Positions 1 to 52,483 of a stretch of 64,000 nt of DNA are shown in pieces. Below the pieces are notes generated by a model that saw only the letters and a list, made by a program, of their open reading frames with translations, ran no database searches and was not told where the DNA came from. Source of the stretch: Dehalococcoidia bacterium UBA6803 (GTDB lineage Bacteria; Chloroflexota; Dehalococcoidia; GIF9; AB-539-J10); contig DKFF01000008.1 of the NCBI GenBank assembly GCA_002452795.1, forward strand, positions 18,271-82,270, given 5' to 3'. Position numbers and translations under genes: made by a program. Position 1 is the first letter of the stretch. Every line of letters starts with the position of its first letter.

Positions 1-2035
1 ACATGCGGGCCAGCGCCACCATGGCCGCCCCTTTATCGCCCAGCAGGTTGATCAGGTGTTCCGGCGAAGGCTCGGCCGTATCCACCATCTTTTTCTCGCG
101 TCCGTCCATCACGCTCCAGTCGGTTTCAGCGCCCCGGCTGATATACAGCCGGGCATACTTGATGCAGCGCGGGCCGATGATGACCGGAATGCCCAGCCGG
201 TTGCAGCCGGTGGCCAGCGCCAGTTCCTCTTCCCCACAGGCGCCCCAGGCCAGCCCACAGGCGCCCACGCGGTTGAGAATGTAGTCGGCCACCACCTCGT
301 AATTGGCTCTCAGCGGCAGGGCCGCGAAGATGCTGGCGATCTTGATGGCCGCGCCTGAGATATGCGCCGCGGCGAAACCGGATCCCATATTAACGATTCC
401 TCCCGCTTCGAAATCGGGCGGGTATTTTTCATAGATTGTCTTGCCCTCGGCGTCCTTTTTGATGGCTGCGGCGATGGCGGAATCCCCCGCCAGCACGACG
501 ATATACTTGCGGCGGGCGAACTCCCCGGCGATATCGGCGATATCATCAGGCGAGCCAGGATAGTTGGAGCCACCCACAATGGCGATCACGCCGGGTATAT
601 TGCCCAGCACCAGGGGTGCGCCCACCTTGCGTATCTCGGTGTCCATAACCGGCCCTCGTCCGGAGCGCATCTTGCCGGACTCCCGGCGGGCGGCGGCCTG
701 CAGCATACGTATGACAGGTATCTTTCCCTTCCCGGCCGATTCACATTTTCCGCAGCCAGTGCACTTTTCGAATACTTCTGAAAACAAATCGAATTCGTGG
801 CGGGCCGCTGCCTCAATCGCATCAGAGATGGGCAGCTTGTTGGGGCAGGCCGCATTACAGGCCCTGGCATCCTTGACCGCGGCCGCCATGGCGGTCACTT
901 CTTCTCTGCTCAGCAGTTGCTTTTTACGTTTAACTGCAAGCTTGATGGCGGCCTCGGCGGCAACGGCCGCAGCCTTGCGGGGATCCAGCACCAGCCGTCC
1001 GGCGCCACGGCCCAGTTCAGATGCTATCTGCCCGGGATCCAGCTCGGAGGCATCCTCCAGACCGTAGACAGCACGGGCGTCAGTGGCAATAAAGGCTGCC
1101 CCCGCGTCGGCAGCTTCTTGCGCAATATCGGTTAATAGATTACCGCCTCCACACATGACCACGTCGGCAATGCCGCAACGCAGGAAAAACAGCAGGCGGG
1201 AGAGCGGCCCGGCTATCCTGGCCCGGGGGCTGTACCTGACCAGGTCATGCGCTACCGGGCCTGCCCCCACCACCTCCACTTTTTCTTCCAGCCCGGCATT
1301 TCTTAAATAATCCACCAGGCAAACTGCAGCGACAGTATCGCATCCCACAATCAGAATAACGGCTTTGGACTGATCAACCGCTGCCCATCCGACATCCACC
1401 AGAGGCGTATCAGCCAGCGAAGCCGGAAAGCCCAGACCCGCGATACAGGCGATCTCGCCTGCTTCCATAGCAACGTGGCTGAGCATCGAGGCCTGCATGA
1501 CCCTCGACTCAAACTCCATATTGGACGTTTCCTGTCCCGTGTTGGCGGCAGCCAGCAGGAAGGCAAGCTGGTGTTCCAGGTAACCCAGCACCGGGGGCAG
1601 GTCGGACAGCTTCTCCGGCTTGAGCCCGATTACGGTGCGGATGTGGGGGGCTTCGATGGCCACCCTGTCGCCCAGCTCTATCTTTGTTTCAGCGCCTTTT
1701 ACATCGATGGCATAGTGAACCATGCGACGTGCGCCGGCGATAGAGCGGGACAATCCTTCGCAGCAAGCCTGCAGAGTAAGACGGGCCTGCATCGTGTTAG
1801 CATCCATGCCGCAGGAACCTTTCCTGCCTTCCGAGAGGTCGCATTCACCGTACGAGCAAAGGTTGCACTTATCGGTCACGGGCACATAAAGAGGAGGCCA
1901 GGTCCTGAGCAGCCTGCGGTCCCAATTCCTAAGGTCGAGCATACCCGGCAGCAGGGTATGCCCTACCGGCTCCCAAGTATCATCAGCGCGGATAAATTCA
2001 CCGGCTTCCCTGTTTTGCCGCTCAGTTTTAGCCAC
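1..2035 (-). CDS. CdhA-like protein (Ni-CODH / acetyl-CoA decarbonylase-synthase alpha-subunit family), N-terminal ~678 codons; C-terminus lies beyond window start
   Basis: Minus-strand frame open from GTG at 2033-2035 (8 nt after AGGAGG that overlaps the cdhD stop) to the window edge; absent from the ORF track only because it has no stop inside the window. By-eye translation gives an N-terminal Cys motif CNLCSYGECDLSEGRKGSCGMD, a ferredoxin-like insert (ACNAACP ... CTGCGKCES) and C-terminal blocks IVGGSNYPG / NMGSGFAAAHISG / NRVGACGLAWGAC that match archaeal CdhA from memory; positions aligned to C-cluster ligands are substituted. Confidence 0.6.
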   Translation of the reverse strand, partial: MAKTERQNREAGEFIRADDTWEPVGHTLLPGMLDLRNWDRRLLRTWPPLYVPVTDKCNLCSYGECDLSEGRKGSCGMDANTMQARLTLQACCEGLSRSIAGARRMVHYAIDVKGAETKIELGDRVAIEAPHIRTVIGLKPEKLSDLPPVLGYLEHQLAFLLAAANTGQETSNMEFESRVMQASMLSHVAMEAGEIACIAGLGFPASLADTPLVDVGWAAVDQSKAVILIVGCDTVAAVCLVDYLRNAGLEEKVEVVGAGPVAHDLVRYSPRARIAGPLSRLLFFLRCGIADVVMCGGGNLLTDIAQEAADAGAAFIATDARAVYGLEDASELDPGQIASELGRGAGRLVLDPRKAAAVAAEAAIKLAVKRKKQLLSREEVTAMAAAVKDARACNAACPNKLPISDAIEAAARHEFDLFSEVFEKCTGCGKCESAGKGKIPVIRMLQAAARRESGKMRSGRGPVMDTEIRKVGAPLVLGNIPGVIAIVGGSNYPGSPDDIADIAGEFARRKYIVVLAGDSAIAAAIKKDAEGKTIYEKYPPDFEAGGIVNMGSGFAAAHISGAAIKIASIFAALPLRANYEVVADYILNRVGACGLAWGACGEEELALATGCNRLGIPVIIGPRCIKYARLYISRGAETDWSVMDGREKKMVDTAEPSPEHLINLLGDKGAAMVALARM

Positions 2036-2047
2036 AGCGCCATCCTC

Positions 2048-2986
2048 CTATAGTTTTCCTTCAATAGCATCCCTGATCAGCCGGCAGTTGTCCGGGTGTC
2101 GCAGCACCAGAATATCTGCTCCGGCCAGCAACAGGCTGATGGCTGTCGTGCTTTCCCATTGCAGGCCCTGCTCTCTATCTGAACGCGCCTGGTTGGTCTT
2201 CCAGCATTCAGCACCGAGGTCGGCAATGACCGGCATCTGCATCGAGGTATCGCCAAAGATCACGCCCACCTGCCGGGTGCGTTCCATGATGGTAAAACTA
2301 TATTCCATACCATAGCCCAGCGCAGAACTGAGCGGATCGATGACTATTTTCTCGGGAGGCAGGCGCTTGAGCAGTTTAACGTTCAGCTCCTTCTCCAGGT
2401 TAATATCGATGGGCGTCTGGGCAATGATACAGTGGCCGTTTTCCGCCACTGCTCCGGCAATGGCTTCGTAATTCTCCTTGACCGCGGGGCCGAGCAGCAA
2501 ATTGGCGCCCTTGCAGGCGGCTGCCACGGCAGACAGCACCTCGATATCCTTTTTGTCGTCACCGCTGCCATAGACTATCAACGGCCGGTCGATGCTGTCG
2601 CTGATCTTTTTGACCAGGGCAGCGGCCTCATCAGCGGGTTTATTGGCGCCTTGCGGATCAGTGCCGTCCAGATGCAGGCAGACCAGGTCGGCGCCCAATT
2701 CAATACATTCATGTGCCCATTTCACCGGGTCATTAAGCACATCCCTGAACGGCGCCCTAATCCATTCCGCCCATCCGGCAGCCCCGTTGTCGTCTATTTG
2801 CAGCGCCACTACCTGGCGGTTGACTGCCTGCCCTTCAAAATAATGGAGCGGGAGTATGTTCTGGCCGCCGATCTTCAGCGCCTTGCTGCCGCTGCCGAGG
2901 ACCACCTCTTTAACCTTACCGGTATATGTTTCCAGCGGAACTTTATAATCCATCGATATCTCCCGGCTAAGACTCCAGCCAGGCAT
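2048..2986 (-). CDS. cdhD: acetyl-CoA decarbonylase/synthase delta subunit (corrinoid Fe-S protein small subunit, CdhD/AcsD)
   Basis: 312 aa; near-colinear similarity to Moorella AcsD recalled (HYFEGQ..NRPV, DPxxWA, LDGxDPxGAN, GYGxEYSFxIMERxR). Confidence 0.85.
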   Translation of the reverse strand: MPGWSLSREISMDYKVPLETYTGKVKEVVLGSGSKALKIGGQNILPLHYFEGQAVNRQVVALQIDDNGAAGWAEWIRAPFRDVLNDPVKWAHECIELGADLVCLHLDGTDPQGANKPADEAAALVKKISDSIDRPLIVYGSGDDKKDIEVLSAVAAACKGANLLLGPAVKENYEAIAGAVAENGHCIIAQTPIDINLEKELNVKLLKRLPPEKIVIDPLSSALGYGMEYSFTIMERTRQVGVIFGDTSMQMPVIADLGAECWKTNQARSDREQGLQWESTTAISLLLAGADILVLRHPDNCRLIRDAIEGKL

Positions 2987-3845
2987 TTGAATAGAGGGCC
3001 TCGCCCATCAGCACCATGGCTGTCTTAACATAATTGCATTCCTGCTGCGATAGAGAGGCAATGTCCACCGGCTCCCCATCCATCACCTTGTAGATAAGCT
3101 CCCTGACTTTGACCAGGCCGCCCTTGTTCAACTGGACAAGTTCCGGGTCAAGCACATCGGCAATGGCCGAGTACAAGCCGTTTTTCTCCAGCATGACCAT
3201 ATATGTTCGGTTGAGTGTTCCCCTCAGTTGGCCTGGCGTCCCGTTGGAGACATTGGAAAGGCCCACCACCGATTTCACTCCGGGCAGCAGGTCACCCAGA
3301 ATCTTGATGAACTCCAACGCCTCGCGCGCCTGCTTCTGGTCAGCGCTGACCGGCAGGATGATGGGATCGACCCAGATGTCTTCATTCTGGATGCCCAGCC
3401 CGTTGGCATAAGCCACGGTTTCCATAACACTCTCTACCCGTGAATCCACATCTGGCGGGCAGCCCTGGTCAGTAATGACTGAAATAATAACCTGCGTATT
3501 ATATTTTACCGCCAGCGGCAGCATGATTTCCCTGCTTTCAGCCTTGCCTGAAGCTGAATTCAACAGCGGACGTTTTTTGCAAAGTTTTAACCCGGCCTCC
3601 ATGGCCAGAGGGTTCATGGTATCGAGTGAAATGGGGAGGTCGGTTACCGCCTGGACCGTATTTACCAGCCATGAAGCGACTTCTTCGGGGTCTTTGCGGG
3701 CCGGGCCCAGGTTGAGGTCGAGCAGGTCGGCGCCGGCCGCGGCCTGTGCCCGGGCCAACTCCTGGATATAAGCAGGTTTACGTTCCCTGACCGCTTCACT
3801 GACAGCCTTTGAAATAATGTGGATGTTCTCGCCGATTAATATCAT
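2967..3845 (-). CDS. acsE: methyltetrahydrofolate:corrinoid/iron-sulfur protein methyltransferase (AcsE-type MeTr, pterin-binding domain)
   Basis: 292 aa; MILIGENIH..DLNxGPA..LSLDTxN..GLSNVS motif series as in Moorella AcsE; overlaps cdhD by 20 nt. Confidence 0.85.
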   Translation of the reverse strand: MILIGENIHIISKAVSEAVRERKPAYIQELARAQAAAGADLLDLNLGPARKDPEEVASWLVNTVQAVTDLPISLDTMNPLAMEAGLKLCKKRPLLNSASGKAESREIMLPLAVKYNTQVIISVITDQGCPPDVDSRVESVMETVAYANGLGIQNEDIWVDPIILPVSADQKQAREALEFIKILGDLLPGVKSVVGLSNVSNGTPGQLRGTLNRTYMVMLEKNGLYSAIADVLDPELVQLNKGGLVKVRELIYKVMDGEPVDIASLSQQECNYVKTAMVLMGEALYSNAWLES

Positions 3846-3946
3846 ATGTATAACAGAATTATATTTTCGGGCATTCTAACATCCTCAGCGCATCACGGGC
3901 AAGGAAAAGCGTTATACGGGTCCTCCAAATAGCGTATAATCTAATA

Positions 3947-5089: not shown

Positions 5090-5658
5090 TTTTTACCCCT
5101 GGAGAGAGAATATTCTAGTTTCCAGTCCGTGAAAGCTGATTACGACATAGAGGGACTGCAAGACAAGCCTAAACCTGGTCGTCCTCGCCGGATTGGGCAG
5201 GATAAAATCGCCGAGATTGTGGCCACCACCATGGCGCCATCACACTATTGGCAGCGCTAAACATAGCTACTGGGGAAGTTATCGGGGAGCGCCATCCCAG
5301 ACATCGTCACCAGGAGTTTCTCAAGTTTCTCAGACGACTGGACAAGGATGTGCCAGATAAGCAGTTGCATCTGATTCTGGATAACTACGGCGCCCATAAA
5401 CACGAGAAAGTGCAGAAACGGCTTAGGCGACATAAGCGTTTTCATCTTCATTTTACTCCTGCTGGAGCATCCTGGATGAATATGGTGGAAATCTGGTTTG
5501 GCATACTGACCAACCAGGCGATTCGCAGGGGCAGCTTTGATAGCGTTGGCCACCTCATCGAGGCAATAAAGGCCTTCGTTAGCCGGTGGAATGAAGGAGC
5601 AAAACCCTTTGTATGTATAAAAACGGCCGAACAAATCCTGGCAAAGGCGGTTAGATAA
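5090..5658 (+). pseudogene. IS630-family transposase remnant (N-terminal HTH segment, internal deletion/frameshift, C-terminal DDE segment)
   Basis: Frame A ...GLQDKPKPGRPRRIGQDKIAEIVATT... stops at 5258-5260; frame B (5248..5658) LAALNIATGEVIGERHPRHRHQEFLKFL ... ILDNYGAHK ... FTPAGASWMNMVEIWF = IS630 DDE core; about 70 codons between the two blocks are missing. Confidence 0.6.
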
Positions 5659-13440: not shown

Positions 13441-14250
13441 ATGAATAAGAAAATGAACAAGAAAATTCCTGAATTCAGCGAAGAAGAACTGGGCACATTC
13501 CAGGCGTTCCGGCGGATTATACAGCGTCTGCGCTCTCCGGACGGATGTCCCTGGGACAGGAAGCAGACCCACGTTTCGCTCAGACCCTACCTGCTGGAAG
13601 AAAGCTACGAAGTACTTGAGAGTATCGATAATAATGATATATCCAGCCTGAGTGAGGAGCTGGGCGACCTCTGGCTGCAGATCATGTTGCATTCACAGAT
13701 TGCAGAGGAGCAGGGTGAGTTCAAGCTGGAAGACGTGCTACGCAAGATCAATGCCAAGCTGATCTTCCGCCATCCCCACGTCTTTGGCGGTAAAGATGTA
13801 AAAGATGCCGAAGAGGTTTCGTTCAACTGGCAGGAGTTGAAAGGACGGGAGAAACCGGAAAACAGCTCGATACTGTCAGGTGTACCGAAGGAGATGCCCG
13901 CCCTGGCAGCGAGCCAGTCTCTGCAGCAGAGGGCAGCCTCTGTCGGCTTCGACTGGGACAAGTTGGATGATGTAATGGAAAAGCTGGTTGAGGAAGTTAA
14001 CGAGCTGAGGAATGCTGCCAGCAAATCTGAGCAGGAGAGTGAATTCGGTGATATCCTGTTTACACTGGCCAATATAGCGCGCCGTATGGATATTGAACTG
14101 GAAGCAGCCTTAAGGCAGACTAATGCGCGTTTTACCCGCCGCTTTAACTATATTGAACAAGCCTGCCATGCCAGCGGCGCAGATATAAAAAGCCTGACGT
14201 TGGCAGAAATGGATAGCCTCTGGAATGAGGCCAAGGAAAGACAGGAATAA
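13441..14250 (+). CDS. mazG: nucleoside triphosphate pyrophosphohydrolase MazG
   Basis: Tandem MazG domains (CPWDRKQTH ... EELGDLW); ATG at 13441 chosen over upstream GTG/TTG in the longer ORF. Confidence 0.8.
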   Translation: MNKKMNKKIPEFSEEELGTFQAFRRIIQRLRSPDGCPWDRKQTHVSLRPYLLEESYEVLESIDNNDISSLSEELGDLWLQIMLHSQIAEEQGEFKLEDVLRKINAKLIFRHPHVFGGKDVKDAEEVSFNWQELKGREKPENSSILSGVPKEMPALAASQSLQQRAASVGFDWDKLDDVMEKLVEEVNELRNAASKSEQESEFGDILFTLANIARRMDIELEAALRQTNARFTRRFNYIEQACHASGADIKSLTLAEMDSLWNEAKERQE

Positions 14251-14253
14251 GCT

Positions 14254-14331
14254 GGTCGGGGAGAGAGGACTCGAACCTCCGACCTCAGCGTCCCGAACGC
14301 TGCGCGCTAACCAGGCTGCGCTACGCCCCGC
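14254..14331 (-). tRNA. tRNA-Pro (anticodon CGG), CCA encoded
   Basis: Reverse complement CGGGGCGTAGCGCAGCCTGGTTAGCGCGCAGCGTTCGGGACGCTGAGGTCGGAGGTTCGAGTCCTCTCTCCCCGACCA folds as a cloverleaf; anticodon loop UUCGGGA; close to E. coli proK. Confidence 0.85.
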
Positions 14332-14415
14332 CCACGATATTATAGGCGGCTTTAACTTCTGCGGCAAGAATTGTAAACTAGAGGGCGAAGTGCTGTGACC
14401 TCTTGAAGGATCTAT

Positions 14416-15600
14416 ATGAAGTATTGCGTTTTAATCATTGATGGGGCGGCCGGCTGGCCGTTGCCCTGGCGGGGAGGGAAAACCAGCCTGGAACTGGCGC
14501 GTACGCCGAACATGGATGCTCTGGCCAGAGAAGGGATGCTGGGAATGGCCAGCACCGTGCCGACGGGGATGGAACCGAGCAGCGCCTGTGCTTGTATGTC
14601 GGTGCTGGGTTATGATCCTGTACTTTATTATCATGGGCGAGGAGCTATTGAGGCCCGGAGCATGGGAATTACTGTCGACAAAGGAGAAGCTGTTTTTCGC
14701 TGCAACCTGGTATCTGTGCAGGCGGGACAAATGGCAAGCTATAGTTCCGGCTATATCAGCAGTGGTGAAAGCCGGACACTCATTGCCTTCCTGAATGAAA
14801 AGATGGGAGGAGAGGAAGTGTTTTTCTATCCTGGAGTTGGCTACAGGCATATCTGCAAGATTAAAGGACACACAGAAACCCTGCGCGCCGTCTGTACTCC
14901 TCCTCATGATATTCCAGGACAAGAGATAAAGGAGTTTCTCCCTCGCGGCAGAGGGAGCGGCGTGTTGCGCGACTTGATGAAACGCTCAGCTGCCGTGCTG
15001 GAAGGACACCCTGTTAACCTGGAACGGCGAAAGAAGGGGGAGTTTCCTGCCTCTGCGATATGGCTTTTCTGGGGAAGCGGGCAAATACCGGATTTGCCTG
15101 CTTTTCGCAAAGTATATGGACTGGAGGCGTCTTTAACCTCCGGAGTTGATTTATTGCGGGGGTTGGCTAAAATGATGGAGGTTGAGGTATTGGACATAGC
15201 CGGCGTGACCGATGGCCCCGATAACGATTATGCCGCCCAGGCGGAGGAAGCGCTGCGAGCTCTTGCGAGGAAAGACATGGTGGTAGTCCATGTAGAAGCT
15301 CCCGATGAGGCAGGACATGCCGGTGATATTGATGCTAAAGTGGAAGCAATACAGCAGGTAGACCGAGAAATCGTGAGGCGTATTCGTGATTGGGAGGGAG
15401 GGCCTCTGCGCGTTTTAATTATGCCTGACCATCCAACTCCGATTGAATTTAGAACGCATGTAAGGGAGGAAGTTCCCTTTCTATTATGGGGCAGGGGAAT
15501 TGTCTCCAACGGAGGGCAGAGATTTACCGAAAGGGAGGCGAGGAGCACGGCTTTTCATGAGGGAAAAGGCTATAATCTTATGAGCAGGCTGGTGGAGTGA
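14416..15600 (+). CDS. ApgM-family cofactor-independent phosphoglycerate mutase-like enzyme (possibly the 'proposed homoserine kinase' subfamily)
   Basis: 394 aa; archaeal-type iPGM family signatures; sits directly upstream of aspartate kinase. Confidence 0.7.
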   Translation: MKYCVLIIDGAAGWPLPWRGGKTSLELARTPNMDALAREGMLGMASTVPTGMEPSSACACMSVLGYDPVLYYHGRGAIEARSMGITVDKGEAVFRCNLVSVQAGQMASYSSGYISSGESRTLIAFLNEKMGGEEVFFYPGVGYRHICKIKGHTETLRAVCTPPHDIPGQEIKEFLPRGRGSGVLRDLMKRSAAVLEGHPVNLERRKKGEFPASAIWLFWGSGQIPDLPAFRKVYGLEASLTSGVDLLRGLAKMMEVEVLDIAGVTDGPDNDYAAQAEEALRALARKDMVVVHVEAPDEAGHAGDIDAKVEAIQQVDREIVRRIRDWEGGPLRVLIMPDHPTPIEFRTHVREEVPFLLWGRGIVSNGGQRFTEREARSTAFHEGKGYNLMSRLVE

Positions 15601-15607: not shown

Positions 15608-16831
15608 ATGTCTTTGATAGTTCAAAAATATGGCGGCAGTTCGCTGGCAGATATAGCCAAAATTAAGCGGGTAGCCCGGCGAGTGGCTAAGGTTCGCGAA
15701 CAGGGAGAACAGGTGGTGGTAGTTGTCTCAGCTATGGGGAAAACTACGGACCATCTGATTGAAATGGCCCACCGGGTGTCTGATCAACCTGATGCCAGAG
15801 AATTGGACAGGTTGCTTTCTACGGGAGAGGCAATTTCCAGCACGCTCCTGGCGATGTCCTTGAAGAAGCTGGGATGTCCGGCGATCAGCCTCAGCGGAGC
15901 GCAGGCGGGTATCCATACCGATTCCAGCTATAGTCGGGCTCGGATACTTAATATTGAAACGGGGCGTATTTTTCGCGAGATGAGCAAGGGAAAAGTGGTT
16001 ATTGTAGCTGGTTTTCAGGGGATTACCCGGGATATGAATATTGCAACGCTGGGGAGGGGTGGCTCGGATACCACAGCGGTTGCTCTGGCTATCGGGTTGA
16101 AAGCAGATATGTGCCAGATTTATACTGATGTTGAAGGGATTTATACTGCTGACCCTCGCCTTGTCCCGGAAGCAGTTAAGATGGAGAAAGTTGATTACGA
16201 TGAGATGCTGGAGCTGGCCAGTTCAGGGGCGAAGGTAATGCATGCCAGAGCGGTAGAACTGGGAGGGATATATGGCATGCCGATTTTGGTAGCTTCCAGT
16301 TTCAGCGATAGGGCAGGGACGATTATTTGCAGGGAGGCGTCGTTTATGGAGAATATTAATAAGGTCAGAGGAATTGCTCATGATACCAATGTAGCGAAAA
16401 TCACAGTTGTCCGGGTGCCGGATCAGCCAGGCGTTGCCGCAGCTATCTTTGTTCCCTTGGCTGAGGCAGGGATAAGCGTAGATACTATTGTCCAGAACGC
16501 CAGCATTGAAAACTGCACCGACCTTACTTTTACCGTAACTCGTGACGATCTGCCTCGGGCGATAGAGGTGACGGAGAAGGTGACTCAACGCATAGGGGCG
16601 GAGAGGTGTGTTAGCGCCGTCGGACTGGCCAAGATCAGCGTCGTGGGTACGGGCATGCAGAGCACCCCGGGTTATGCAGCCAAGATGTTTCGTTCTATGA
16701 AAGATGCGGAGATAAACATACAGATGATCACTACCTCCGAGATAAAAATCACCTGTATTATTTCCGAAGGCAGGGTTGAAGACGCCGTACGGGTGTTGCA
16801 TAAAGAATTCGGACTAGCTAGGGGAGAGTAA
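15608..16831 (+). CDS. lysC: aspartate kinase
   Basis: 407 aa; KYGGSSL N-terminus, two C-terminal ACT domains. Confidence 0.9.
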   Translation: MSLIVQKYGGSSLADIAKIKRVARRVAKVREQGEQVVVVVSAMGKTTDHLIEMAHRVSDQPDARELDRLLSTGEAISSTLLAMSLKKLGCPAISLSGAQAGIHTDSSYSRARILNIETGRIFREMSKGKVVIVAGFQGITRDMNIATLGRGGSDTTAVALAIGLKADMCQIYTDVEGIYTADPRLVPEAVKMEKVDYDEMLELASSGAKVMHARAVELGGIYGMPILVASSFSDRAGTIICREASFMENINKVRGIAHDTNVAKITVVRVPDQPGVAAAIFVPLAEAGISVDTIVQNASIENCTDLTFTVTRDDLPRAIEVTEKVTQRIGAERCVSAVGLAKISVVGTGMQSTPGYAAKMFRSMKDAEINIQMITTSEIKITCIISEGRVEDAVRVLHKEFGLARGE

Positions 16832-16858
16832 AGGAACCGCAGTTGAGAGAACAGCGTT

Positions 16859-17761
16859 TTGCCAACTTGCCGATATTGTTTCGGTTGTTTGGCGGGGGAA
16901 CGCTTTTTGTGTGAGGAGCAGATGGAACGCTATTGTCGGCAGGAAGAGGGACAGTCCTGGTTGCGAAAGCAATTGGTGCGGGAAGCCGTGTCTTTGGCGC
17001 TGAGAGATTGTTGGGAAGAAGCGGTACTAGTTAACGAGAAAATACTAGAGCAATTCCCCGAAGACGCAGAAGCTTATAACCGCCTTGGCAAGGCGTTGGC
17101 GGAATTGGGGAGGAATTATCAGGCTAAGAAGGCTTATATGAAGGTCATGGAAATCAATCCGGGTAACGCTATTGCCAGGAAAAATCTGGCCCGTCTGTCC
17201 CGGTTGCCTGAAGAGGAGGTTCCTGAAAGTGCTAAACGGGGCAAGCTCTCCTCGGAGGTGTTCATTGCCGAGAGAGGAAAGGTGGGCATAGCCAAGCTGA
17301 TTGATTTGGGGCAGAGAGAGGAACTAGATAGATTGAGCCCCGGGGATATTGTGTATCTGAAAGAGAAGGGACAGCGATTGGTAGCCATGGATGGACGGGG
17401 AAAGTATCTGGGGAAAGTGGAACAGAGGCACGAGGTGAGATTGATGAACCTGATCAGGGGGGGGAACAAGTATGACGCAGTTGTCCTGGGGATACGACAG
17501 CAAGAAGTGAGATTGATTATCCGGGAAGTGTTTAGCTCGCCGGCGCAGAAGGGACGGCTCTCTTTCCCTGCTCGTGGTGCAGTGATACAGAGAGAGGAGA
17601 AAGGGATGGAACATTTTCTTGAGGCAGACGGGGATGTGATTCTTGCCCCTGAATATTTCAGAGAAGAGGAAGACAGTTTGAAGGAAGAAGAGAGAGAAAA
17701 GATACCTGAAGGCTTTTTTGTGATTGATGATGTTGACAAAACAGAAGAGGGGAAAGAATGA
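16859..17761 (+). CDS. TPR-repeat protein with Cys-rich N-terminus and acidic C-terminus
   Basis: 300 aa; TPR-like [40 protein letters not shown]; stop overlaps gyrA start (ATGA). Confidence 0.55.
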
Positions 17762-20232
17762 AGGAACCAGAAAAACAAGGGACTGGGGCAGTGTTGCCCG
17801 TAAACATTGAGGAGGAAATGAAGACCTCTTACCTTGATTATGCCATGAGCGTCATTGTTTCCCGGGCGTTGCCTGACGTGCGCGATGGGCTCAAGCCTGT
17901 GCAGCGGCGTATCCTGTATGCCATGAATGACTTAGGGTTGCAACGCCGCAGCCCGTATAAGAAAAGCGCGCGTATTGTAGGAGAGGTTCTGGGGAAATAC
18001 CATCCCCATGGAGATAGTTCGGTATACGAAGCCATGGTGCGGATGGCGCAACCTTTTTCCCTGAGGAATCCGCTTGTCGAGGGTCAGGGTAATTTTGGTA
18101 GTGTGGATAACGATCCTCCTGCGGCGATGCGTTATACGGAGGCCAGGCTAGCGGCTGTAGCACAAGAGATGCTGGTTGACCTAGAAAAAGAAACAGTCAA
18201 CTTCGTGCCTAATTTTGACGAATCTTTGCAAGAGCCTGCCGTGCTACCCGCTAGATTACCCAATTTATTGGTAAATGGCGCTTCAGGTATAGCTGTGGGC
18301 ATGGCGACTACAATTCCGCCGCATAATCTGGGAGAAGTTTGTGACGCCATTGCTTACTTGATAGAGAATCCTGATGCTTCTACGGAAGAGCTGATGAGGT
18401 TTGTTCAAGGGCCTGATTTTCCTACAGCAGGCATTATAATGGGGCGCGAAGGAATTAAAAATGCTTATGTTTCGGGAAAAGGCAAGGTAGTAGTGCGAGC
18501 GAAGGTGGAGACAATTCCGCTGAAGGGAGATAGGCAACAACAGTTGGTTATTACTGAGCTTCCTTACGAGGTAAACAAAGCCGCCCTGGTAGAGAGAATA
18601 GCGGAACTGGCTAGGAGCAGGAAAATAGAAGGGATCCTGGAGGTGCGGGACGAGTCAGATCGTCGTGGTATGCGGGTAGTAATTGAACTTAAGAAGGCGG
18701 CACAGCCGCAGCATATACTGAACAATTTATTCAAATACACTTCAATGCAGTCGTCTTTCTATATCAACATGGTGGCATTGGTGGAGGGACAACCCAAGTT
18801 GATCAATCTCAGAGAAGCACTGGGCTGTTACATTGATTTTCGCCGTGAAATTATTACCCGTCGTTCTCGGTTTGATCTCAATAAGGCGCGGGACAGAGCA
18901 CACATTTTGGAGGGATTACGGGTTGCATTGGATAACATGGACAGGATTATTAAATTGATTCGCGAGTCAGAGACTGTCGATATCGCCCGTGCCAATTTGA
19001 TGGCGGTTTTCGATCTGTCTCACCTTCAGTCTCAGGCGATTCTGGATATGCAACTGCGCCGGTTGGCGCATCTGGAGAGGGAAAAGATCATGGAGGAATA
19101 CGCCGAAGTGTTGAAGAGCATTTCCTACTTTGAGGATCTGTTGGCGTATCCTCAAAAGATATTGTTTTTGACCAAACAGGACGTGCTTGCCCTTAAGAGT
19201 CAATACGCCGATCCCAGGCGGACTGTTGTTCTGGCAGAGGAGGCTATGGAATTTTGCCGCGAAGATCTGGTTCCCCACCAGATGGTGGTGGTTACCTTGA
19301 CTGAGCAAGGGTTCATTAAGAGGCTTCCTATCAGCACCTATCGGTTGCAGCATCGCGGAGGGAAGGGGGTTATGGGCATGGTAACCAGGCAGGCGGATAT
19401 ACTGCAGAAAGTACTTGTGGCAGATACGCACGATTCCCTGTTTTTCTTTACTGCTTCAGGCAAGGTTTATACGCTGAAGTGTTATGAGGTTCCGGAAGAA
19501 GTATCTCGCACAGCTAAAGGTGTCGCACTGGTCAATTTGCTTTCTGTTGACCTGAAAGATCAGGTAACGGCGCTGGTATCCGTCCGGGAGATTTCTTCGG
19601 ACAGATTTTTGTTGATGGCTACAGAAGCAGGGCTAGTGAAAAAGACTCCCCTGGACAAGTTTGCTTCTATACGGCGAAGCGGGCTTGTGACAATGGGTCT
19701 CAGGTCTGGGGACAGGCTGGTCGTCTCCAGAATAGTGTCTGATTTAGAGGAGGTGGTAATGGTAAGTCAGGCGGGACAGGCTGTCCGGTTTGGGGTAAAG
19801 GATCTGAGAAGCGCCTCCCGCACTAGTGGAGGAGTGAGAGGTATCCGTTTAGGTGGGGAAGATAAGGTTGCTGGCGTTGATGTCGTTTTTGACGAAGCGT
19901 ATGCTTTGCTGGTGACAGACAACGGGTATGGCAAGCTTACTCCTATAAAGAATTATCCCCTCCATCGTCGGGGAGGCAAAGGGGTGCGGGCCTACCGAGT
20001 TAATGACAAAACGGGCGGATTAATTTCCTTCAAGTTGGTGACGCCTGCTGGATCTCTGGTGTTGCTCTCGGGTAGGGGTAAAGTTAATTGTATTAGATTG
20101 GAGCAGATTGCGAAACAGAGCAGGAATAGCAGCGGAGTGCGATTGATGTCTATGGACGAAGGAGATAGAGTGGTCTCCATTGCTGTGCCCGAACAGGAAG
20201 TTGGGCAGGAGGGGCGGGGAAGCCTGCAATAG
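17758..20232 (+). CDS. gyrA: DNA gyrase subunit A
   Basis: 824 aa; GyrA N-terminal domain with active-site Tyr region, C-terminal beta-pinwheel repeats. Confidence 0.95.
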
Positions 20233-20289: not shown

Positions 20290-22134
20290 CTATCGTAGGG
20301 TAGGGAGGTTTCCTTGTTCTTTTTTTGCCCGCACCAATTTTTCCCGGCAGGGAAGTTGCCAGCGCTGTAATCCACAGGCATTGCAGTGCTCATGGTCACA
20401 GGTCGGAGTTTCTTTCCCCTGTCGCAACTTGAAGTATTCTTCCTTCAGGAAAGAGGAAGTTACCCCTGTGTCAATATGCGCCCAGGGCAATAATTCCTCC
20501 AGGTCTCGTTCCCGGTTGGCATAAAAGGAGATGTCAAGCTCACATCGAGCAAAGGCAGCTTCCCACTTGTGGAAAGAAAAGAGTTCCCGCCATGCGTCAA
20601 ATTTGCATCCTTCTTGCCATGCTTGGTGAATAACCTTGCCCAAGCGACGGTCTCCCCTGGACAGGGCTGCCTCTATGCGGCATGCCTCCAGATTGGGCCA
20701 GGACAGCTTCACCTTTCGTTTGCGCAATGATTCTTTTAAAACGTCAAGCTTGGGAAGTAGCAGTTCCTCGGTTTCTTGTGCCAACCACTGGCAAGCAGTG
20801 TGAGGCTTGGGTATCAGAACGGAAGTGCCTATACGCAGCTGTGGTTTTTTCTGCAGGTGAAGTATGGCCTCTGCCAGCGTGGCGATGCTTCGGACATCCT
20901 CCATGGTCTCGGAAGGAAGCCCCAGCATAAAATAAAGCTTGAATTTTTTCCATCCGTCTCCTACAAGAGTGGCCAGGGCATCTAGAATGGCTTTATCGGT
21001 AAGATTTTTGTTGATGACTTTACGCAGCCTTTCGTTACCTGCCTCAGGGGCAAAAGTTAAGGTCATTTTGCGTTGTGATGAAGATAGCAAACTGGATATT
21101 TCTGGGGAGATCATGTCCAGGCGCAGGCTGGGGAGAGAGAAGGAAAGATTGTTGCTGTAATGTTGCTGGATAAGCCTGGAAACGAGGCATGTGATTTCAG
21201 GGTAATCCAGGACGCTGAAAGAGAGCAGCGACAATTCGCTGTAGCCACAGTTTTTCAGCAGGGCATTTGTAGCCGCCAAGATCTCTTCTTGGGGGCGCTT
21301 TCTCTCAGGTCGGTATAGTGTGCTTGCCTGGCAGAAACGGCAGCCACGATTACAGCCTCTCTGAATTTCTATAACGCCGCGGTCGTGGACTGTTTCTATG
21401 TAGGGAACCACAGGTTTGACAACAGGAGAAGGCAGATTGTTAACCAGTCTGCGCTTGATCTTGGGCTTGGCCTCGGGAACTAGGGGAAGAAAAGCCTCCA
21501 AGGTACCGTCAGCGTAATATTTCACCTGGTAGAAGGAAGGAACATAGATGCCGTCTATAGTAGCTGCTTGACGCAACAAAGAGGTCTTGTTGCCACTATG
21601 CAGCCGGAAAGCGTCCAGTAATTCCAGAATTACCTCTTCTCCCTCCCCGATTACGAAGAGATCAATAAAATTTGCCATAGGCTCAGGGTTGCAAGAGCAA
21701 CAGCCGCCGGCGATTATCAGAGGAGAAGAGGCAGTCCTCTGGGAGGCTAGCAGGGGGATTTGAGCTAGGTTCAACATGTTCAGGCAGTTGGTATAAGTAA
21801 GTTCGTATCCCAAGGAAAATCCGACGATATCGAAGTTTTTCAAGGGATGGCGTGTTTCCAGGCTGAAGAGAGGAAGTTTTTCCCTGCGCATGATGTTTTC
21901 CATATCTATCCAGGGAGCAAATACTCTTTCTGCTAAAATGTCTGGCTCTCTGTTTAGGATGTCGTAAAGAATAGTTATAGCCAGATTGGACATGCCTATC
22001 TCGTAGATTTCAGGGTAACACAGGGCGACTTTGATATTGATGGAACGCCAGTCCTTGCTAATGCTGTTCCATTCACCTCCTGTATAGCGGGCTGGCTTGG
22101 TAACACGGTTCAGTATATAGTTCAAGGAAGACAT
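20290..22134 (-). CDS. B12-binding-domain radical SAM protein (TIGR03960-like with fused C-terminal domain)
   Basis: Start at MSSLNYILNRVTKPARYTGGEWN (ATG 22132-22134); CNRGCRFC radical SAM motif; C-terminal CDHEHCNACG. Confidence 0.7.
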   Translation of the reverse strand: MSSLNYILNRVTKPARYTGGEWNSISKDWRSINIKVALCYPEIYEIGMSNLAITILYDILNREPDILAERVFAPWIDMENIMRREKLPLFSLETRHPLKNFDIVGFSLGYELTYTNCLNMLNLAQIPLLASQRTASSPLIIAGGCCSCNPEPMANFIDLFVIGEGEEVILELLDAFRLHSGNKTSLLRQAATIDGIYVPSFYQVKYYADGTLEAFLPLVPEAKPKIKRRLVNNLPSPVVKPVVPYIETVHDRGVIEIQRGCNRGCRFCQASTLYRPERKRPQEEILAATNALLKNCGYSELSLLSFSVLDYPEITCLVSRLIQQHYSNNLSFSLPSLRLDMISPEISSLLSSSQRKMTLTFAPEAGNERLRKVINKNLTDKAILDALATLVGDGWKKFKLYFMLGLPSETMEDVRSIATLAEAILHLQKKPQLRIGTSVLIPKPHTACQWLAQETEELLLPKLDVLKESLRKRKVKLSWPNLEACRIEAALSRGDRRLGKVIHQAWQEGCKFDAWRELFSFHKWEAAFARCELDISFYANRERDLEELLPWAHIDTGVTSSFLKEEYFKLRQGKETPTCDHEHCNACGLQRWQLPCREKLVRAKKEQGNLPTLR

Positions 22135-22386
22135 CCTGCTATTATACCTGCAGGGTACCATCTCCTCAAGAGAATCAGGGTTATTAGGAAAAGGAGAGCA
22201 CAATTTGACAATCCTTAGTGCCTTGTGATAATTTCTTATCCTGTCGCTTGCCGAAACGGAAGAGCCGTGGTTTTATGAACTCCTGCCTGAGGTGTTTCGC
22301 GGACAGAAGAGGTTTTGAATAAGGCAGGATGGGGAAAGCTGGCGGCTTTTTAATTGTCCGGAAGCAAAACGAGGAGACAAAAGATA

Positions 22387-44449: not shown

Positions 44450-45015
44450 AATCAAGCCCCTTTTTGCTGAAGAATATGAACAAACTTTGCGGGAGGTTAA
44501 GTCTATTTCCATTGTAACATATGTTGTTTGAAGGTTTGCCTTCGAGTCGTTTGTGACGTCCAATTGTTAATTTATGCTTTGTATAGGGCAAGGTAGTGCC
44601 AGAAGGGGAGGGTGTTAATGCTACTGCTTGTTCAGGTTATGCGTGGACACAAGAGTTGATAGAGGCAGTGACCGAATGTGAGGTAGGGGAGGCCTTGGGC
44701 GAAGCATATGCTTCTCATGGCATGATATCGGTTGGTATATTATCATGGGGGATGCCAATCTGGCTGTGTTTAATTTATCTGTATTTGTTATGAGGTTGTA
44801 TGTATCGTGGTAAGTAGTTTTCTGGAGGTGGAAATACGTAGTTTGTCTGATATGAAGATTGTATTTGAGAGGATATACTTAAGTTGCTAATAAGAGGTGG
44901 TATCTGCGGGCGGTTATTTGGGTTATAAGAGATTTGGGCCCGGAGAGGAAACTGAAGATGTGTTGTGCATTTGAGTCGAGAGAATTTTAACGTAGAGAAG
45001 TTAAAGGAGGTAAAA

Positions 45016-47628: not shown

Positions 47629-47672
47629 CATCTCGCAGAGATAAGCGAGGGAGACTACCGCAACGAGAGTTG

Positions 47673-47712: not shown

Positions 47713-47755
47713 TCTGTGTAGCGGTGAGTATTTATGTAAAGGAGGTTGTCTGCTT

Positions 47756-52421: not shown

Positions 52422-52483
52422 TTCTTTAAAAGCGTCTTTGCAAGGTCCCGACATGATCATCCTCCTTGATTTATTATTTTATG

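What the first reader, a model, noticed from the sequence alone, without database searches (positions are those of the whole stretch)
1..2035. CdhA-family CODH homolog with every C-cluster ligand position substituted, encoded next to cdhD and acsE
The minus strand reads open from a GTG at 2035 to the window edge. The encoded protein is colinear with archaeal ACDS alpha subunit (CdhA), comparing against the Methanosarcina sequence as I recall it. At the positions that aligned to the NiFe4S4 C-cluster ligands I re-read the DNA directly. IGHN becomes VGCDT, a CCT motif becomes GAGPVA, GCPNYP becomes GGSNYP, SGCSA becomes AGDSA, and GSCVSNAHISG becomes GSGFAAAHISG. The ferredoxin-like insert keeps only 5 of its 8 Cys, and the N-terminal B/D-cluster motif keeps some of its Cys. 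This looks like a non-catalytic CODH scaffold inside an otherwise intact methyl-branch module. That would fit a Dehalococcoidia-type incomplete Wood-Ljungdahl pathway that cleaves acetyl-CoA without oxidising CO. It could equally be a repurposed Fe-S protein.
Basis: partly seen in the sequence, partly recalled or inferred. Interest (0 to 1): 0.7.

Follow-up and report, generated by a model that had tools for sequence, protein, structure and literature searches.

The report
Catalytically dead CODH subunit beside ACS
A Dehalococcoidia bacterium keeps a well-conserved copy of the CO-dehydrogenase alpha subunit that has lost every residue holding its nickel-iron active site but still sits in an intact acetyl-CoA synthase operon, so it is probably a structural helper rather than an enzyme, and databases wrongly count it as a working CO dehydrogenase.

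Summary
The minus-strand ORF 2035..2 (678 codons, cut by the window edge; 764 aa in a 96.6%-identical contig) is a CdhA homologue with an intact CdhA fold (model TM 0.91 to solved CdhA). All six C-cluster ligand positions are substituted, as are both acid-base residues and one D-cluster Cys. It is not a one-off. At least 45 protein clusters from Dehalococcoidia MAGs share the pattern, form one clade, and evolve under strong purifying selection (dN/dS 0.05-0.13). The gene is the positional orthologue of canonical cdhA. In every relative the epsilon subunit gene cdhB is gone. cdhC (A-cluster motifs intact), cdhD/E, acsE, nuoEF-like genes and a CooC/AcsF-type ATPase remain, and a CoA-transferase is added. 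Four Cys with B-cluster spacing are invariant. The residues that in Methanosarcina CdhA form the CO alcove over the ACS A-cluster are invariant too. Best reading: a pseudo-enzyme kept as the A1-domain-like partner of an A1-less ACS, in a module that cannot interconvert CO and CO2. Published CODH surveys list only partial-loss groups or filter such sequences out. NCBI and JGI name these proteins as ordinary CdhA. I class it as a new variant of a known kind. The direction of flux and a possible new site in the old pocket remain untested.

The parts
2..2035 (-). cdhA* : C-cluster-less CdhA homologue, residues 1-678 of about 764 (3' end runs off the window)
   Evidence: Open frame. TIGR00314 cdhA 714.6 bits. 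8riu_A E=1.5e-176. The full-length orthologue in L079 is 96.6% nt identical.
1811..1867 (-). Retained 4-Cys site C57-x2-C60-x4-C65-x9-C75 (B-cluster type spacing). D-cluster Cys39-equivalent is Thr and Cys48-equivalent is Asn.
   Evidence: All four Cys are 100% conserved in the clade (42 of 42 aligned members).
1340..1342 (-). Former C-cluster His261 position, here Cys232 (Asn/Ser/Asp in relatives); followed by the clade-invariant Asp233-Thr234
1256..1261 (-). Former Cys294/Cys295 positions, here Gly259-Pro260; the gained His263 lies 3 residues on
1139..1153 (-). Former Cys333 position, here Asn299, in C295-G-G-G-N (canonical T-D-E-Q-C)
731..862 (-). Ferredoxin-like insert remnant. C397(P) plus C425, C428 and C431 form one complete [4Fe-4S] ligand set; the other cluster's ligands are lost.
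   Evidence: These four Cys are invariant in the 13 764-aa-type sequences aligned (window included). The whole insert is deleted in the ~695-aa forms.
602..643 (-). Helix alphaA block DTEIRKVGAPLVLG with Arg469 and Val476 (= M. thermophila CdhA Arg500, Val507: contact to the A-cluster Gly and the CO alcove)
   Evidence: Mapping from the alignment and PMC11474084. Invariant in 42/42 degenerate and 23/23 canonical sequences.
569..571 (-). Former Cys446 position, here Gly489
482..484 (-). Former Cys476 position, here Asp518 (Asp/Glu in 42/42)
377..379 (-). Former Cys526 position, here Gly553
326..328 (-). Phe570 (= M. thermophila CdhA Phe601, alcove/channel gate on helix alphaB)
224..238 (-). Former Lys563 region, here C600-G-E602-E603-E604 (canonical Y-S-Q-K-A)
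2048..2986 (-). cdhD (CoFeSP small subunit). The likely true start is ATG 2953 (301 aa, as in relatives).
   Evidence: NF003376 339 bits and PF03599; start comparison with L079
2967..3845 (-). acsE (methyl-THF:CoFeSP methyltransferase), first gene of the operon
   Evidence: NF005719 231 bits (below its 259-bit cutoff) and PF00809. Same position in all related loci.
3873..3902 (-). Candidate sigma-70-like promoter upstream of acsE (TTGCCC-18-TAGAAT, TG-extended); weak evidence
   Evidence: The number of sites in the region is not above the shuffle expectation.

Best explanation
cdhA* encodes a pseudo-enzyme: an alpha subunit of the archaeal-type CODH/ACS (ACDS) that no longer carries the Ni-Fe-S C-cluster or the D-cluster. 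It therefore cannot interconvert CO and CO2.

It is kept under selection because the short, A1-domain-less acetyl-CoA synthase CdhC encoded next to it needs the alpha subunit's Rossmann-fold 2 and C-terminal extension. In solved methanogen complexes these pack against the A-cluster, form the CO-binding alcove and gate the gas channel. This is the job the cluster-less, CODH-derived A1 domain does in bacterial AcsB.

The operon would then make a CODH-less acetyl-CoA decarbonylase/synthase from CdhA*, CdhC, CdhDE and AcsE. Most likely it splits acetyl-CoA (possibly supplied by the linked CoA-transferase) into methyl-THF, CoA and free CO that leaves the cell, as shown experimentally for Dehalococcoides mccartyi. 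Alternatively it builds acetyl-CoA from external CO.

Shown:
- loss of all catalytic residues
- fold retention
- clade-wide purifying selection
- orthology by position
- co-loss of cdhB
- intact A-cluster motifs in CdhC
- invariance of the alcove residues

Inferred: physical CdhA*-CdhC pairing, the alcove function, the direction of flux and the fate of CO.
For: (1) 0 of 6 C-cluster ligands remain, plus K563->E, H93->S and C39->T.

(2) The fold is intact. The AF2 model of the 96%-identical P0001 has pLDDT 79.5 and pTM 0.85. Foldseek gives TM 0.91, 0.90 and 0.91 to 8riu, 9c0q and 3cf4.

(3) There is a coherent clade of 45 clusters with the same pattern. It is monophyletic in an NJ tree, next to canonical Dehalococcoidia CdhA.

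(4) dN/dS is 0.054-0.082 for pairs with dS 0.3-0.9. Window versus relatives gives 0.08-0.13. Every domain is under purifying selection, and Rossmann 2 is the tightest at 0.040.

(5) Synteny shows positional orthology. The degenerate operon is acsE-cdhD-cdhA*-cdhC-cdhE-nuoE-nuoF-CbiA ATPase-DUF3786-CoA transferase-|mutL. The canonical operon is acsE-cdhD-cdhA-(DUF166)-cdhB-cdhC-cdhE-nuoE-nuoF-CbiA-DUF3786-|mutL. All 12 of 12 degenerate loci lack cdhB. Every canonical locus that extends past cdhA has it. Epsilon is the subunit that buries the D-cluster (PMC11474084), so losing both together makes sense.

(6) The partner CdhC keeps CxxC..C..C and Cys-Gly-Cys in 40 of 40 409-aa clade members, and keeps the alcove Phe in CALCQSF.

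(7) M. thermophila CdhA alcove/contact residues Arg500, Val507 and Phe601 (PMC11474084) map to Arg469, Val476 and Phe570. These are invariant in 42/42 sequences.

(8) The ACS A1 domain (6yua_A) aligns to this same region. It keeps the same Arg/Val/Phe and has no Cys at the C446, C476 and C526 equivalents. That is a natural precedent for a cluster-less CODH Rossmann-2 serving ACS. [quoted passage not shown]

(9) A second, unrelated full-loss CdhA-like lineage (P0305/P0318) is not next to any ACS gene and does not keep the alcove residues.

(10) There is a precedent for CODH-less acetyl-CoA cleavage with CO release in the same class (D. mccartyi; PMC7005905).
Against: - No experiment or complex model was possible, so CdhA*-CdhC contact is inferred from homology.
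- Rossmann 2 is also the most constrained domain in canonical CdhA. By dN/dS the relaxation looks roughly uniform (2-3x) across domains apart from the Fd insert (few canonical pairs). Domain-specific retention is therefore not strong evidence.
- A pure lid would not obviously need the invariant B-type 4-Cys site, nor the conserved ferredoxin 4-Cys set of the 764-aa forms.
- Three ligand Cys became Gly and the pocket gained invariant acidic residues (D233, D/E518, E604) plus near-invariant H263, C295 and C624. This looks more like a remodelled pocket than a filled-in one.
- A monofunctional cooS elsewhere in the genome could not be excluded.
- I could not verify whether D. mccartyi ACS carries an A1 domain.
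Confidence: 0.6

Rival explanations
1. Repurposed pocket. The former C-cluster cavity now binds a different metal, cofactor or substrate, and CdhA* has a new redox or metal-handling activity (for example Ni/Fe delivery to the A-cluster, or a new reaction). Electrons would come through the retained B-type cluster and, in the 764-aa forms, one ferredoxin cluster.
For: The substitutions are fixed, not random. G259 is invariant, G489 and G553 are kept in 39/42 each, D233-T234 are in 42/42, D/E518 is in 42/42, and E602/E603/E604 are near-invariant. Several residues are gained: H263 in 41/42, C624 in 40/42, C239 in 39/42, C295 in 38/42 and C600 in 33/42. By the model's secondary structure, H263, C295, C600 and C624 sit at strand ends or first helix turns facing the old site. 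The B-type Cys are invariant. One complete Fd 4-Cys set is kept in the 764-aa forms. There is precedent for CODH scaffolds evolving other chemistry: ChCODH-V and clade B RfCODH.
Against: The gained Cys are not invariant. C600 is Ser/Ala/Asn in 9 of 42, C295 is Phe/Gly in 4, and C239 is Ser/Tyr in 3. The true cluster ligands in the same proteins are 42/42. The Fd insert is dispensable, being deleted in most of the clade. No coordinates were available to test whether these residues are within bonding distance. It does not explain the invariance of the ACS-alcove residues, though the two ideas are compatible.
Confidence: 0.2
2. Electron relay. CdhA* is kept mainly as an Fe-S wire that passes electrons from the NuoE/NuoF-like flavoprotein encoded downstream to activate the A-cluster or CoFeSP reductively.
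For: The B-type 4-Cys site is invariant, and one Fd cluster is retained in the 764-aa forms. nuoE- and nuoF-like genes are kept in all degenerate operons although there is no CO oxidation for them to couple to.
Against: The nuoEF-like genes are equally present in canonical operons, so they are not specific to this variant. In solved CODHs the B-cluster serves the C-cluster of the partner subunit and is far from the ACS-binding face (general CODH structural knowledge, not computed here). The surface-exposed entry cluster domain is deleted in most of the clade.
Confidence: 0.12
3. Decaying relic. The gene is a pseudogene in the making, after loss of CO metabolism, and has no function.
For: Constraint is relaxed relative to canonical CdhA: 54-56% identity for CdhA against 69-74% for the neighbouring CdhC, and higher dN/dS. 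One basal partial-loss relative (P0068) is followed by a CdhC with SCGWF in place of SCGCF.
Against: The frame stays open over 764 codons in dozens of independent assemblies. dN/dS is 0.05-0.13. 260 alignment columns are shared at >=90% with the catalytic clade. Operon position and translational signals are conserved.
Confidence: 0.03
4. Still a CO dehydrogenase, with a C-cluster held by relocated ligands.
For: Four Cys and one His are gained near the old site, numerically close to the five Cys and one His that were lost.
Against: The gained residues are variable. Both acid-base catalysts are replaced by Glu and Ser/Thr. The epsilon subunit and D-cluster are gone. No known Ni-CODH works with such a ligand set, and even a single C295 change gives a different cluster without CO oxidation (Jeoung 2022, as cited in PMC13240472).
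Confidence: 0.02

Closest known systems
CdhA, alpha subunit of archaeal-type ACDS / CODH-ACS (M. barkeri 3CF4, M. thermophila 9C0Q-9C0T, Ca. Ethanoperedens 8RIU; TIGR00314; Ni-CODH clade A)
   Same: Colinear over the whole length at 34-42% identity, with model TM about 0.9. Same operon position as canonical Dehalococcoidia cdhA. A B-type Cys site, the Rossmann-2 helix alphaA/alphaB motifs and the C-terminal extension are conserved.
   Different: It has no C-cluster ligands, no acid-base Lys/His, no D-cluster and no epsilon partner. One (764-aa forms) or both (695-aa forms) of the E/F clusters are lost.
A1 domain of bacterial acetyl-CoA synthase AcsB (e.g. 6YUA/6YTT, Moorella 1OAO)
   Same: A CODH-Rossmann-2-derived module without a catalytic cluster. 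It caps the A-cluster, forms the CO alcove and gates the channel. It aligns to residues 461-621 of CdhA* and shares the Arg, Val and Phe alcove residues.
   Different: A1 is fused to ACS and is only one helical bundle plus a Rossmann fold. CdhA* is a separate, full-size alpha subunit that still has the N-terminal Fe-S domain and Rossmann 1. The functional equivalence is inferred, not tested.
Ni-CODH structural groups A-4 and A-6 of Inoue et al. 2019 (PMC6344411)
   Same: Bacterial clade-A CODHs lacking the D-cluster, with incomplete C-cluster and acid-base signatures, found in gene clusters with ACS. P0065 here (H261N, C295S) is of this kind.
   Different: A-4 and A-6 lose only His and Cys1 and keep the other four Cys. 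P0065 still has cdhB. The present clade loses all six ligands and cdhB. No published group with total loss was found.
Incomplete Wood-Ljungdahl pathway of Dehalococcoides mccartyi (Zhuang et al. 2014, as described in PMC7005905)
   Same: Same bacterial class. ACS and CoFeSP are present without CO-oxidising capacity. Acetyl-CoA cleavage to a methyl group plus free CO is the documented function.
   Different: D. mccartyi has no CODH gene at all and no acsE. Here a full-length dead cdhA and acsE are kept. The MTHFR status of this organism is unknown.
Repurposed CODH scaffolds: ChCODH-V (clade D) and RfCODH (clade B)
   Same: CODH-fold proteins that have left canonical CO oxidation.
   Different: Those still bind a modified cluster at the C-site and are not ACS partners. 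CdhA* has no ligands left.
Second full-loss CdhA-like lineage (P0305, P0318)
   Same: All six ligand positions are non-canonical and the B-type Cys are kept.
   Different: It is much more divergent, is not in an ACS operon (L081), and does not conserve the alcove residues.

Membership tests
Catalytic Ni,Fe-CODH (CdhA equivalog, TIGR00314 / clade A) | Sequence and fold homology to CdhA over the full length | tested here: met
   TIGR00314 scores 714.6 bits for the truncated window protein. Full-length P0001 scores 809 and P0008 825, against a cutoff of 781.3. Foldseek TM is 0.90-0.91 to 8riu, 9c0q and 3cf4.
Catalytic Ni,Fe-CODH (CdhA equivalog, TIGR00314 / clade A) | C-cluster ligands His261, Cys295, Cys333, Cys446, Cys476, Cys526 | tested here: not met
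   The six positions are Cys, Pro, Asn, Gly, Asp and Gly in the window protein. No member of the clade (45 clusters; 42 aligned) keeps the set.
Catalytic Ni,Fe-CODH (CdhA equivalog, TIGR00314 / clade A) | Acid-base residues Lys563 and His93 | tested here: not met
   Glu603 and Ser; Glu/Asp and Ser/Thr/Ile across the clade.
Catalytic Ni,Fe-CODH (CdhA equivalog, TIGR00314 / clade A) | B-cluster: four Cys | tested here: met
   C57, C60, C65 and C75 are invariant. The first Cys is the former D-cluster Cys47 position, giving the CooS-like spacing CxxCx4C.
Catalytic Ni,Fe-CODH (CdhA equivalog, TIGR00314 / clade A) | D-cluster (type I C-x2-C-C) and the epsilon subunit CdhB that covers it | tested here: not met
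   The Cys39 equivalent is Thr. cdhB is absent between cdhA* and cdhC in 12/12 related loci and in the 96.6%-identical L079. The window itself ends before this point.
Catalytic Ni,Fe-CODH (CdhA equivalog, TIGR00314 / clade A) | CO oxidation / CO2 reduction activity; Ni content | not testable with these tools
   Needs purified protein.
ACS-capping module (functional analogue of the AcsB A1 domain / CdhA Rossmann fold 2) | Alcove and contact residues Arg500, Val507, Phe601 (M. thermophila CdhA) = Arg142, Val149, Phe229 (Moorella A1) | tested here: met
   Arg469, Val476 and Phe570 are invariant in 42/42. The same residues align in the A1 domain of 6yua_A.
ACS-capping module (functional analogue of the AcsB A1 domain / CdhA Rossmann fold 2) | A partner ACS lacking A1, with an intact A-cluster site and alcove Phe | tested here: met
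   The partner is a 409-aa CdhC (TIGR00316, 570 bits) directly downstream in relatives. CxxC..C..C, SCGCF and the CALCQSF Phe are kept in 40/40. This is inferred for the window organism from L079.
ACS-capping module (functional analogue of the AcsB A1 domain / CdhA Rossmann fold 2) | Physical packing of Rossmann 2 on the A-cluster; gating of a gas channel | not testable with these tools
   No multimer modelling or coordinates were available.
Hybrid-cluster protein (HCP) / ChCODH-V-type hybrid cluster | Hybrid-cluster ligand set (His, Glu and several Cys at C-site-equivalent positions); best match to HCP families | tested here: not met
   Only the generic PF03063 family matches, and the best specific family is cdhA. 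The positions equivalent to C333, C446, C476 and C526 are Asn, Gly, Asp and Gly. The expected HCP ligand pattern is from my own knowledge.
D. mccartyi-type incomplete Wood-Ljungdahl pathway | ACS + CoFeSP present; no functional CODH; no acsE; no MTHFR | tested here: inconclusive
   ACS and CoFeSP are present in relatives, and the operon lacks CODH function. acsE is present, which differs from D. mccartyi. MTHFR and any cooS elsewhere in the genome could not be checked.

The most novel reading that the evidence does not exclude
CdhA* is not just a lid. The emptied and enlarged C-cluster cavity, lined by clade-invariant Asp233, Asp/Glu518 and Glu602-604 and by near-invariant His263, Cys295 and Cys624, would be a newly evolved metal- or substrate-binding site. 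The retained B-type cluster would wire it, with one ferredoxin cluster added in the 764-aa forms. This would give the CODH scaffold a new activity coupled to ACS, for example Ni or Fe handling for the A-cluster, or a new way of disposing of or capturing CO.
Probability: 0.2. Interest if true: 0.85.

Novelty: new variant of a known kind. Interest (0 to 1): 0.66.

Why it matters
(1) It is a natural separation-of-function variant. If a CODH alpha subunit with no active site is still kept under strong selection next to an A1-less ACS, then the alpha subunit has a CO-chemistry-independent role in ACS catalysis. Recent cryo-EM work proposes exactly this role (alcove, channel gating), and it can now be tested with a protein that nature has already "knocked out".

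(2) It is an intermediate on the path from a complete archaeal-type CODH/ACS in Dehalococcoidia to a CODH-less module such as the D. mccartyi pathway. A graded series is visible: P0065, then P0068, then the full-loss clade.

(3) The CbiA-family ATPase and the NuoEF-like proteins survive the loss of the C-cluster. This suggests they serve ACS or CoFeSP rather than CODH.

(4) There is a practical consequence. The 764-aa forms pass the TIGR00314 equivalog cutoff, and NCBI and JGI name them CdhA. Metabolic reconstructions of peat, fen, soil and hydrocarbon-site Dehalococcoidia would therefore wrongly score a complete carbonyl branch (CO2 fixation, homoacetogenesis, CO oxidation). Curated CODH surveys do the opposite: they discard such sequences and never see them.

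Tried and rejected
- Coordinates of the AF2 model are not exposed to scripts. I could not measure distances between the gained Cys/His/acidic residues or inspect the cavity. Only secondary-structure placement was used.
- A new 4-Cys cluster made from C239, C295, C600 and C624 was considered. I downgraded it because these positions vary (33-40 of 42), unlike the true ligands.
- The idea that constraint was relaxed only in the N-terminal and Rossmann-1 domains was suggested by column entropy. Per-domain dN/dS did not clearly support it (few usable canonical pairs). I do not rely on it.
- I tried to learn whether D. mccartyi ACS is an A1-containing AcsB. Zhuang 2014 is not held, the other papers do not say, and a CdhC homologue search listed no D. 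mccartyi protein in the top 120. This stays unresolved.
The only indirect hint is weak. None of the 74 canonical CdhA clusters has a longest contig as long as the 2.46-Mb chromosome or the 2.2-Mb contig that carry cdhA*. This says nothing about cooS.
- HCP membership was rejected.
- The pseudogene reading was rejected.
- Rfam found only a tRNA in the window.
- The promoter and terminator scan near the operon is not above chance.


Full report
**Observation.** The minus strand of the window is open from GTG 2035 to the window edge, 678 codons. An RBS GGAGG lies 8 nt upstream. The product is an unambiguous CdhA homologue.
- TIGR00314 (cdhA) scores 714.6 bits and Pfam Prismane also matches.
- The best solved relatives are CdhA of Ca. 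Ethanoperedens (8riu_A, E=1.5e-176), M. thermophila (9c0q_A) and M. barkeri (3cf4_A).

They fall on the C-cluster ligand columns in the pairwise alignments and in a 122-sequence alignment.

In C. hydrogenoformans CODH-II numbering, the catalytic and D-cluster changes are:

| Canonical residue | In the window protein |
|---|---|
| H261 | C232 |
| C294/C295 | G259/P260 |
| C333 | N299 |
| C446 | G489 |
| C476 | D518 |
| C526 | G553 |
| K563 (acid-base) | E603 |
| H93 (acid-base) | Ser |
| C39 (D-cluster) | Thr |
| C48 | Asn |

The ligand numbering and its motifs come from my knowledge of CODH-II, checked against the canonical sequences.

**What is kept.** Four Cys are invariant: C57-x2-C60-x4-C65-x9-C75. 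This is the spacing of a CooS-type B-cluster. The ferredoxin-like insert keeps C393, C397, C425, C428 and C431. Of these, C397(P) plus C425/428/431 are invariant in the 764-aa forms. By the usual cross-ligation rule of 2x[4Fe-4S] ferredoxins (established knowledge), they make up exactly one complete cluster site. The other site is destroyed.

**It is a family, not an accident.** The homologue search returned three groups:
- 12 clusters of 737-764 aa (all but one 762-764 aa) at 67-96% identity, with the same pattern;
- about 32 clusters of roughly 695 aa with the same pattern but the ferredoxin insert deleted;
- canonical 766-771-aa Dehalococcoidia CdhA at 54-56% identity, with every ligand present.

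An NJ tree (no support values) makes the degenerate sequences one clade beside the canonical Dehalococcoidia clade. A partial-loss form, P0068, sits at its base.

Selection is clearly purifying. dN/dS is 0.054-0.082 for pairs with unsaturated dS (0.3-0.9), and 0.08-0.13 for the window gene against relatives. Every domain is under purifying selection: N-terminal 0.096, Rossmann 1 0.100, Fd insert 0.172, Rossmann 2 0.040, C-terminal extension 0.073.

An AlphaFold2 model of P0001 (96% identical, full length) has pLDDT 79.5 and pTM 0.85. It superposes on solved CdhA with TM 0.90-0.91. The fold is therefore intact.

**Recovering the missing end.** Contig L079 (Logan SRR28876186) is 96.6% identical to the window over 4.4 kb. 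It shows a 764-aa protein, followed after 75 nt by cdhC, with no cdhB.

**Genomic context.** In the window the operon reads, on the minus strand, acsE (3845..2967), cdhD (2953/2986..2048), cdhA* (2035..). It lies next to rnhA, gyrB, nadD, obg and dnaA at the replication origin, where GC skew switches near 12 kb. Relatives with the degenerate gene have the same origin-side synteny.

| Operon type | Gene order |
|---|---|
| Degenerate | acsE-cdhD-cdhA*-cdhC(409 aa)-cdhE-nuoE-like-nuoF-like-CbiA-family ATPase-DUF3786-CoA-transferase, then convergent mutL |
| Canonical Dehalococcoidia | acsE-cdhD-cdhA-DUF166-cdhB-cdhC-cdhE-nuoE-nuoF-CbiA-DUF3786, then mutL |

So cdhA* is the positional orthologue of cdhA. 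A tblastn survey of 78 loci gave a clean split:
- 12 of 12 degenerate loci lack cdhB.
- Every canonical locus that extends past cdhA has cdhB.
- The CoA-transferase occurs only in degenerate loci, in 10 of the 12. Two of the three hit-less loci show no hit past DUF3786, which lies within about 1 kb of the locus end.

Epsilon is the subunit that buries the D-cluster (PMC11474084). Its loss together with the D-cluster ligand is therefore coherent.

The partner CdhC is intact. CxxC..C..C, SCGCF and the alcove Phe in CALCQSF are present in 40 of 40 members of the 409-aa CdhC clade. CdhC is 69-74% identical to canonical CdhC, against 54-56% for CdhA.

**Why keep a dead alpha subunit?** Cryo-EM of the M. 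thermophila CODH/ACS (Biester et al. 2024, PMC11474084) shows three relevant things. The A1-less archaeal ACS packs its A-cluster directly against Rossmann fold 2 and the C-terminal extension of CdhA. CdhA residues Leu504, Val507 and Phe601, with ACS Phe195, form the CO alcove. Arg500 hydrogen-bonds the A-cluster Gly. These are the same roles that Ile146, Val149, Phe229 and Arg142 of the A1 domain play in Moorella ACS. Zimmer et al. [quoted passage not shown]

Using the 9c0q alignment, Arg500, Val507 and Phe601 map to Arg469, Val476 and Phe570. These are invariant in all 42 degenerate and 23 canonical sequences. Leu504 is Ala in both.

The A1 domain of a solved ACS (6yua_A) aligns to residues 461-621 of CdhA*. 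It keeps the same Arg, Val and Phe, and has no Cys at the C446, C476 and C526 equivalents. A1 is thus a natural precedent for a cluster-less CODH Rossmann-2 module working for ACS.

A search of 1.84 billion cluster representatives found only 264 CdhA-like clusters. Among 35 full-length representatives, total ligand loss occurs only in this clade (representative P0033) and in one divergent lineage (P0305/P0318). That lineage is not next to ACS genes and does not keep the alcove residues. This contrast modestly supports the ACS-partner reading.

**Most likely mechanism (confidence about 0.6).** CdhA* is a pseudo-enzyme that caps and gates the A-cluster of CdhC. The module is an acetyl-CoA decarbonylase/synthase without CO/CO2 interconversion. 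By analogy with D. mccartyi, which cleaves acetyl-CoA to a methyl group and free CO (PMC7005905), I favour cleavage of acetyl-CoA to methyl-THF via CoFeSP and AcsE, with CO release. The clade-specific CoA-transferase may supply the acetyl-CoA. Synthesis from external CO is the alternative.
- Shown: the sequence, phylogenetic, selection and synteny facts above.
- Inferred: the CdhA*-CdhC contact, the alcove function, the direction of flux and the fate of CO.

**What does not fit neatly.** The pocket is remodelled rather than filled.
- Three ligand Cys became Gly, and DEQC became GGGN.
- Invariant acidic residues appear: D233, D/E518 and E604. E602 and E603 are near-invariant.
- His263 (41/42), Cys624 (40/42), Cys239 (39/42), Cys295 (38/42) and Cys600 (33/42) are gained.

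In the model's secondary structure, H263, C295, C600 and C624 lie at strand ends or first helix turns facing the old site. Together with the invariant B-type site, this keeps a repurposed-pocket reading alive, at about 0.2. Because the gained Cys vary, I do not think they ligate an obligatory cluster. Rossmann 2 is also the most constrained domain in canonical CdhA. Its conservation alone is therefore not diagnostic.

**Comparison with what is known.** Inoue et al. 2019 described bacterial clade-A groups A-4 and A-6 with only His and Cys1 replaced, and noted that the last three Cys are conserved "with a few exceptions". P0065 here is such a form and still has cdhB. P0068 is a further step: H261, C295, C446 and K563 are lost, and the Fd insert and cdhB are gone. 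The 2026 marine survey removes any sequence lacking a C-cluster Cys. Six literature searches found no description of a total-loss CdhA linked to ACS.

NCBI and JGI name these proteins "CO dehydrogenase/acetyl-CoA synthase complex subunit alpha". Examples are MGA9048397.1 on the closed chromosome OY970123.1, MGD0354287.1, MDD5311711.1 and MCX6004268.1. The 764-aa forms pass the TIGR00314 equivalog cutoff, at 809 and 825 bits against 781.3. Canonical P0096 scores 1122, and the 695-aa form fails at 714.

**Verdict.** The feature is a new variant of a known kind: a conserved, catalytically dead CdhA retained in an ACS operon. Interest is 0.66. A specialist would find it surprising, it makes the non-catalytic role of CODH in ACS function directly testable, and it exposes a systematic annotation error for environmental Dehalococcoidia.

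Noticed in passing
window 44965-48682 (+), with 42640-44563 (-): A PFL-like glycyl radical enzyme (887 aa). Its best NCBIfam hits (HypD 316 bits, sulfopropanediol dehydratase 297, CutC 253) are all far below the equivalog cutoffs of about 1000-1100, so its substrate is unknown. Its activase is at 47756-48682. A PAS-HisKA_3 kinase and a NarL-type response regulator lie upstream.
   Followed up: partly
L001 19368-21140; L075 18452-20221; L077 19693-21465: A 590-aa CoA-transferase (PF01144, no NCBIfam hit) follows DUF3786 in 10 of 12 degenerate-type operons and in none of the canonical ones. It may feed or drain acetyl-CoA for the CODH-less module.
   Followed up: partly
L078 2039-5403: The partial-loss CdhA P0068 keeps C333, C476 and C526 but has lost H261, C295, C446, K563 and the Fd insert. 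It has no cdhB downstream. Its CdhC reads SCGWF instead of the Cys-Gly-Cys motif SCGCF, so this may be a truly decaying operon or a sequencing error.
   Followed up: partly
L080 (GCA_016930155.1, JAFGHL010000071.1): P0065 is an A-6-like CdhA (H261N, C295S, other ligands kept). It still has cdhB and sits in a rearranged origin-proximal locus: acsE-cdhD-cdhE-nuoEF on one strand, rnhA, and cdhA-cdhB-cdhC on the other, next to gyrB and dnaA.
   Followed up: partly
L081 310-2955 and 8812-10955: A second, divergent CdhA-like lineage with every C-cluster position replaced (P0305, 881 aa; also P0318). It is not in an ACS operon. It lies near toxin-antitoxin genes, an SMC-like ATPase and another large multi-Prismane protein of 1052+ aa.
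   Followed up: partly
window 5248-5658 (+): A DDE_3 transposase fragment (136 aa) in the 1.8-kb gap between rnhA and gyrB. Relatives carry other small genes in this origin-proximal stretch, either between gyrB and nadD (an acetyltransferase in L001 and L077) or between rnhA and acsE (HTH, C_GCAxxG in L001).
   Followed up: no
window 51234-53788 and 56503-60329 (-): A methyl-cycle and methionine-salvage cluster: ahcY, metK, an MTA-phosphorylase-like PNP_UDP_1 and mtnA (IF-2B family). It is possibly relevant if the ACS module supplies methyl groups, but no link was tested.
   Followed up: no
L003-L008, between cdhE (about 13640-15000) and nuoE (16476-18079): The 75%-identity group of degenerate operons carries roughly 1.5-3 kb of extra DNA between cdhE and the nuoE-like gene. 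It is absent from L001, L075 and L077. The content was not examined.
   Followed up: no
window 2953-2986: The mechanical cdhD ORF starts at ATG 2986 and overlaps acsE. Comparison with L079 and the other relatives (301 aa), plus an RBS GGGAG, points to ATG 2953 as the real start.
   Followed up: yes
window 20290-22203 (-): A TIGR03960-family B12-binding radical SAM protein (725 bits) lies between gyrA and the ribosomal protein/EF-G cluster.
   Followed up: no
NCBI names (P0053, P0065, P0088, P0106): Several canonical 765-769-aa Dehalococcoidia CdhA proteins are named 'subunit epsilon' in NCBI records. This is a naming error unrelated to the true CdhB gene found downstream.
   Followed up: no
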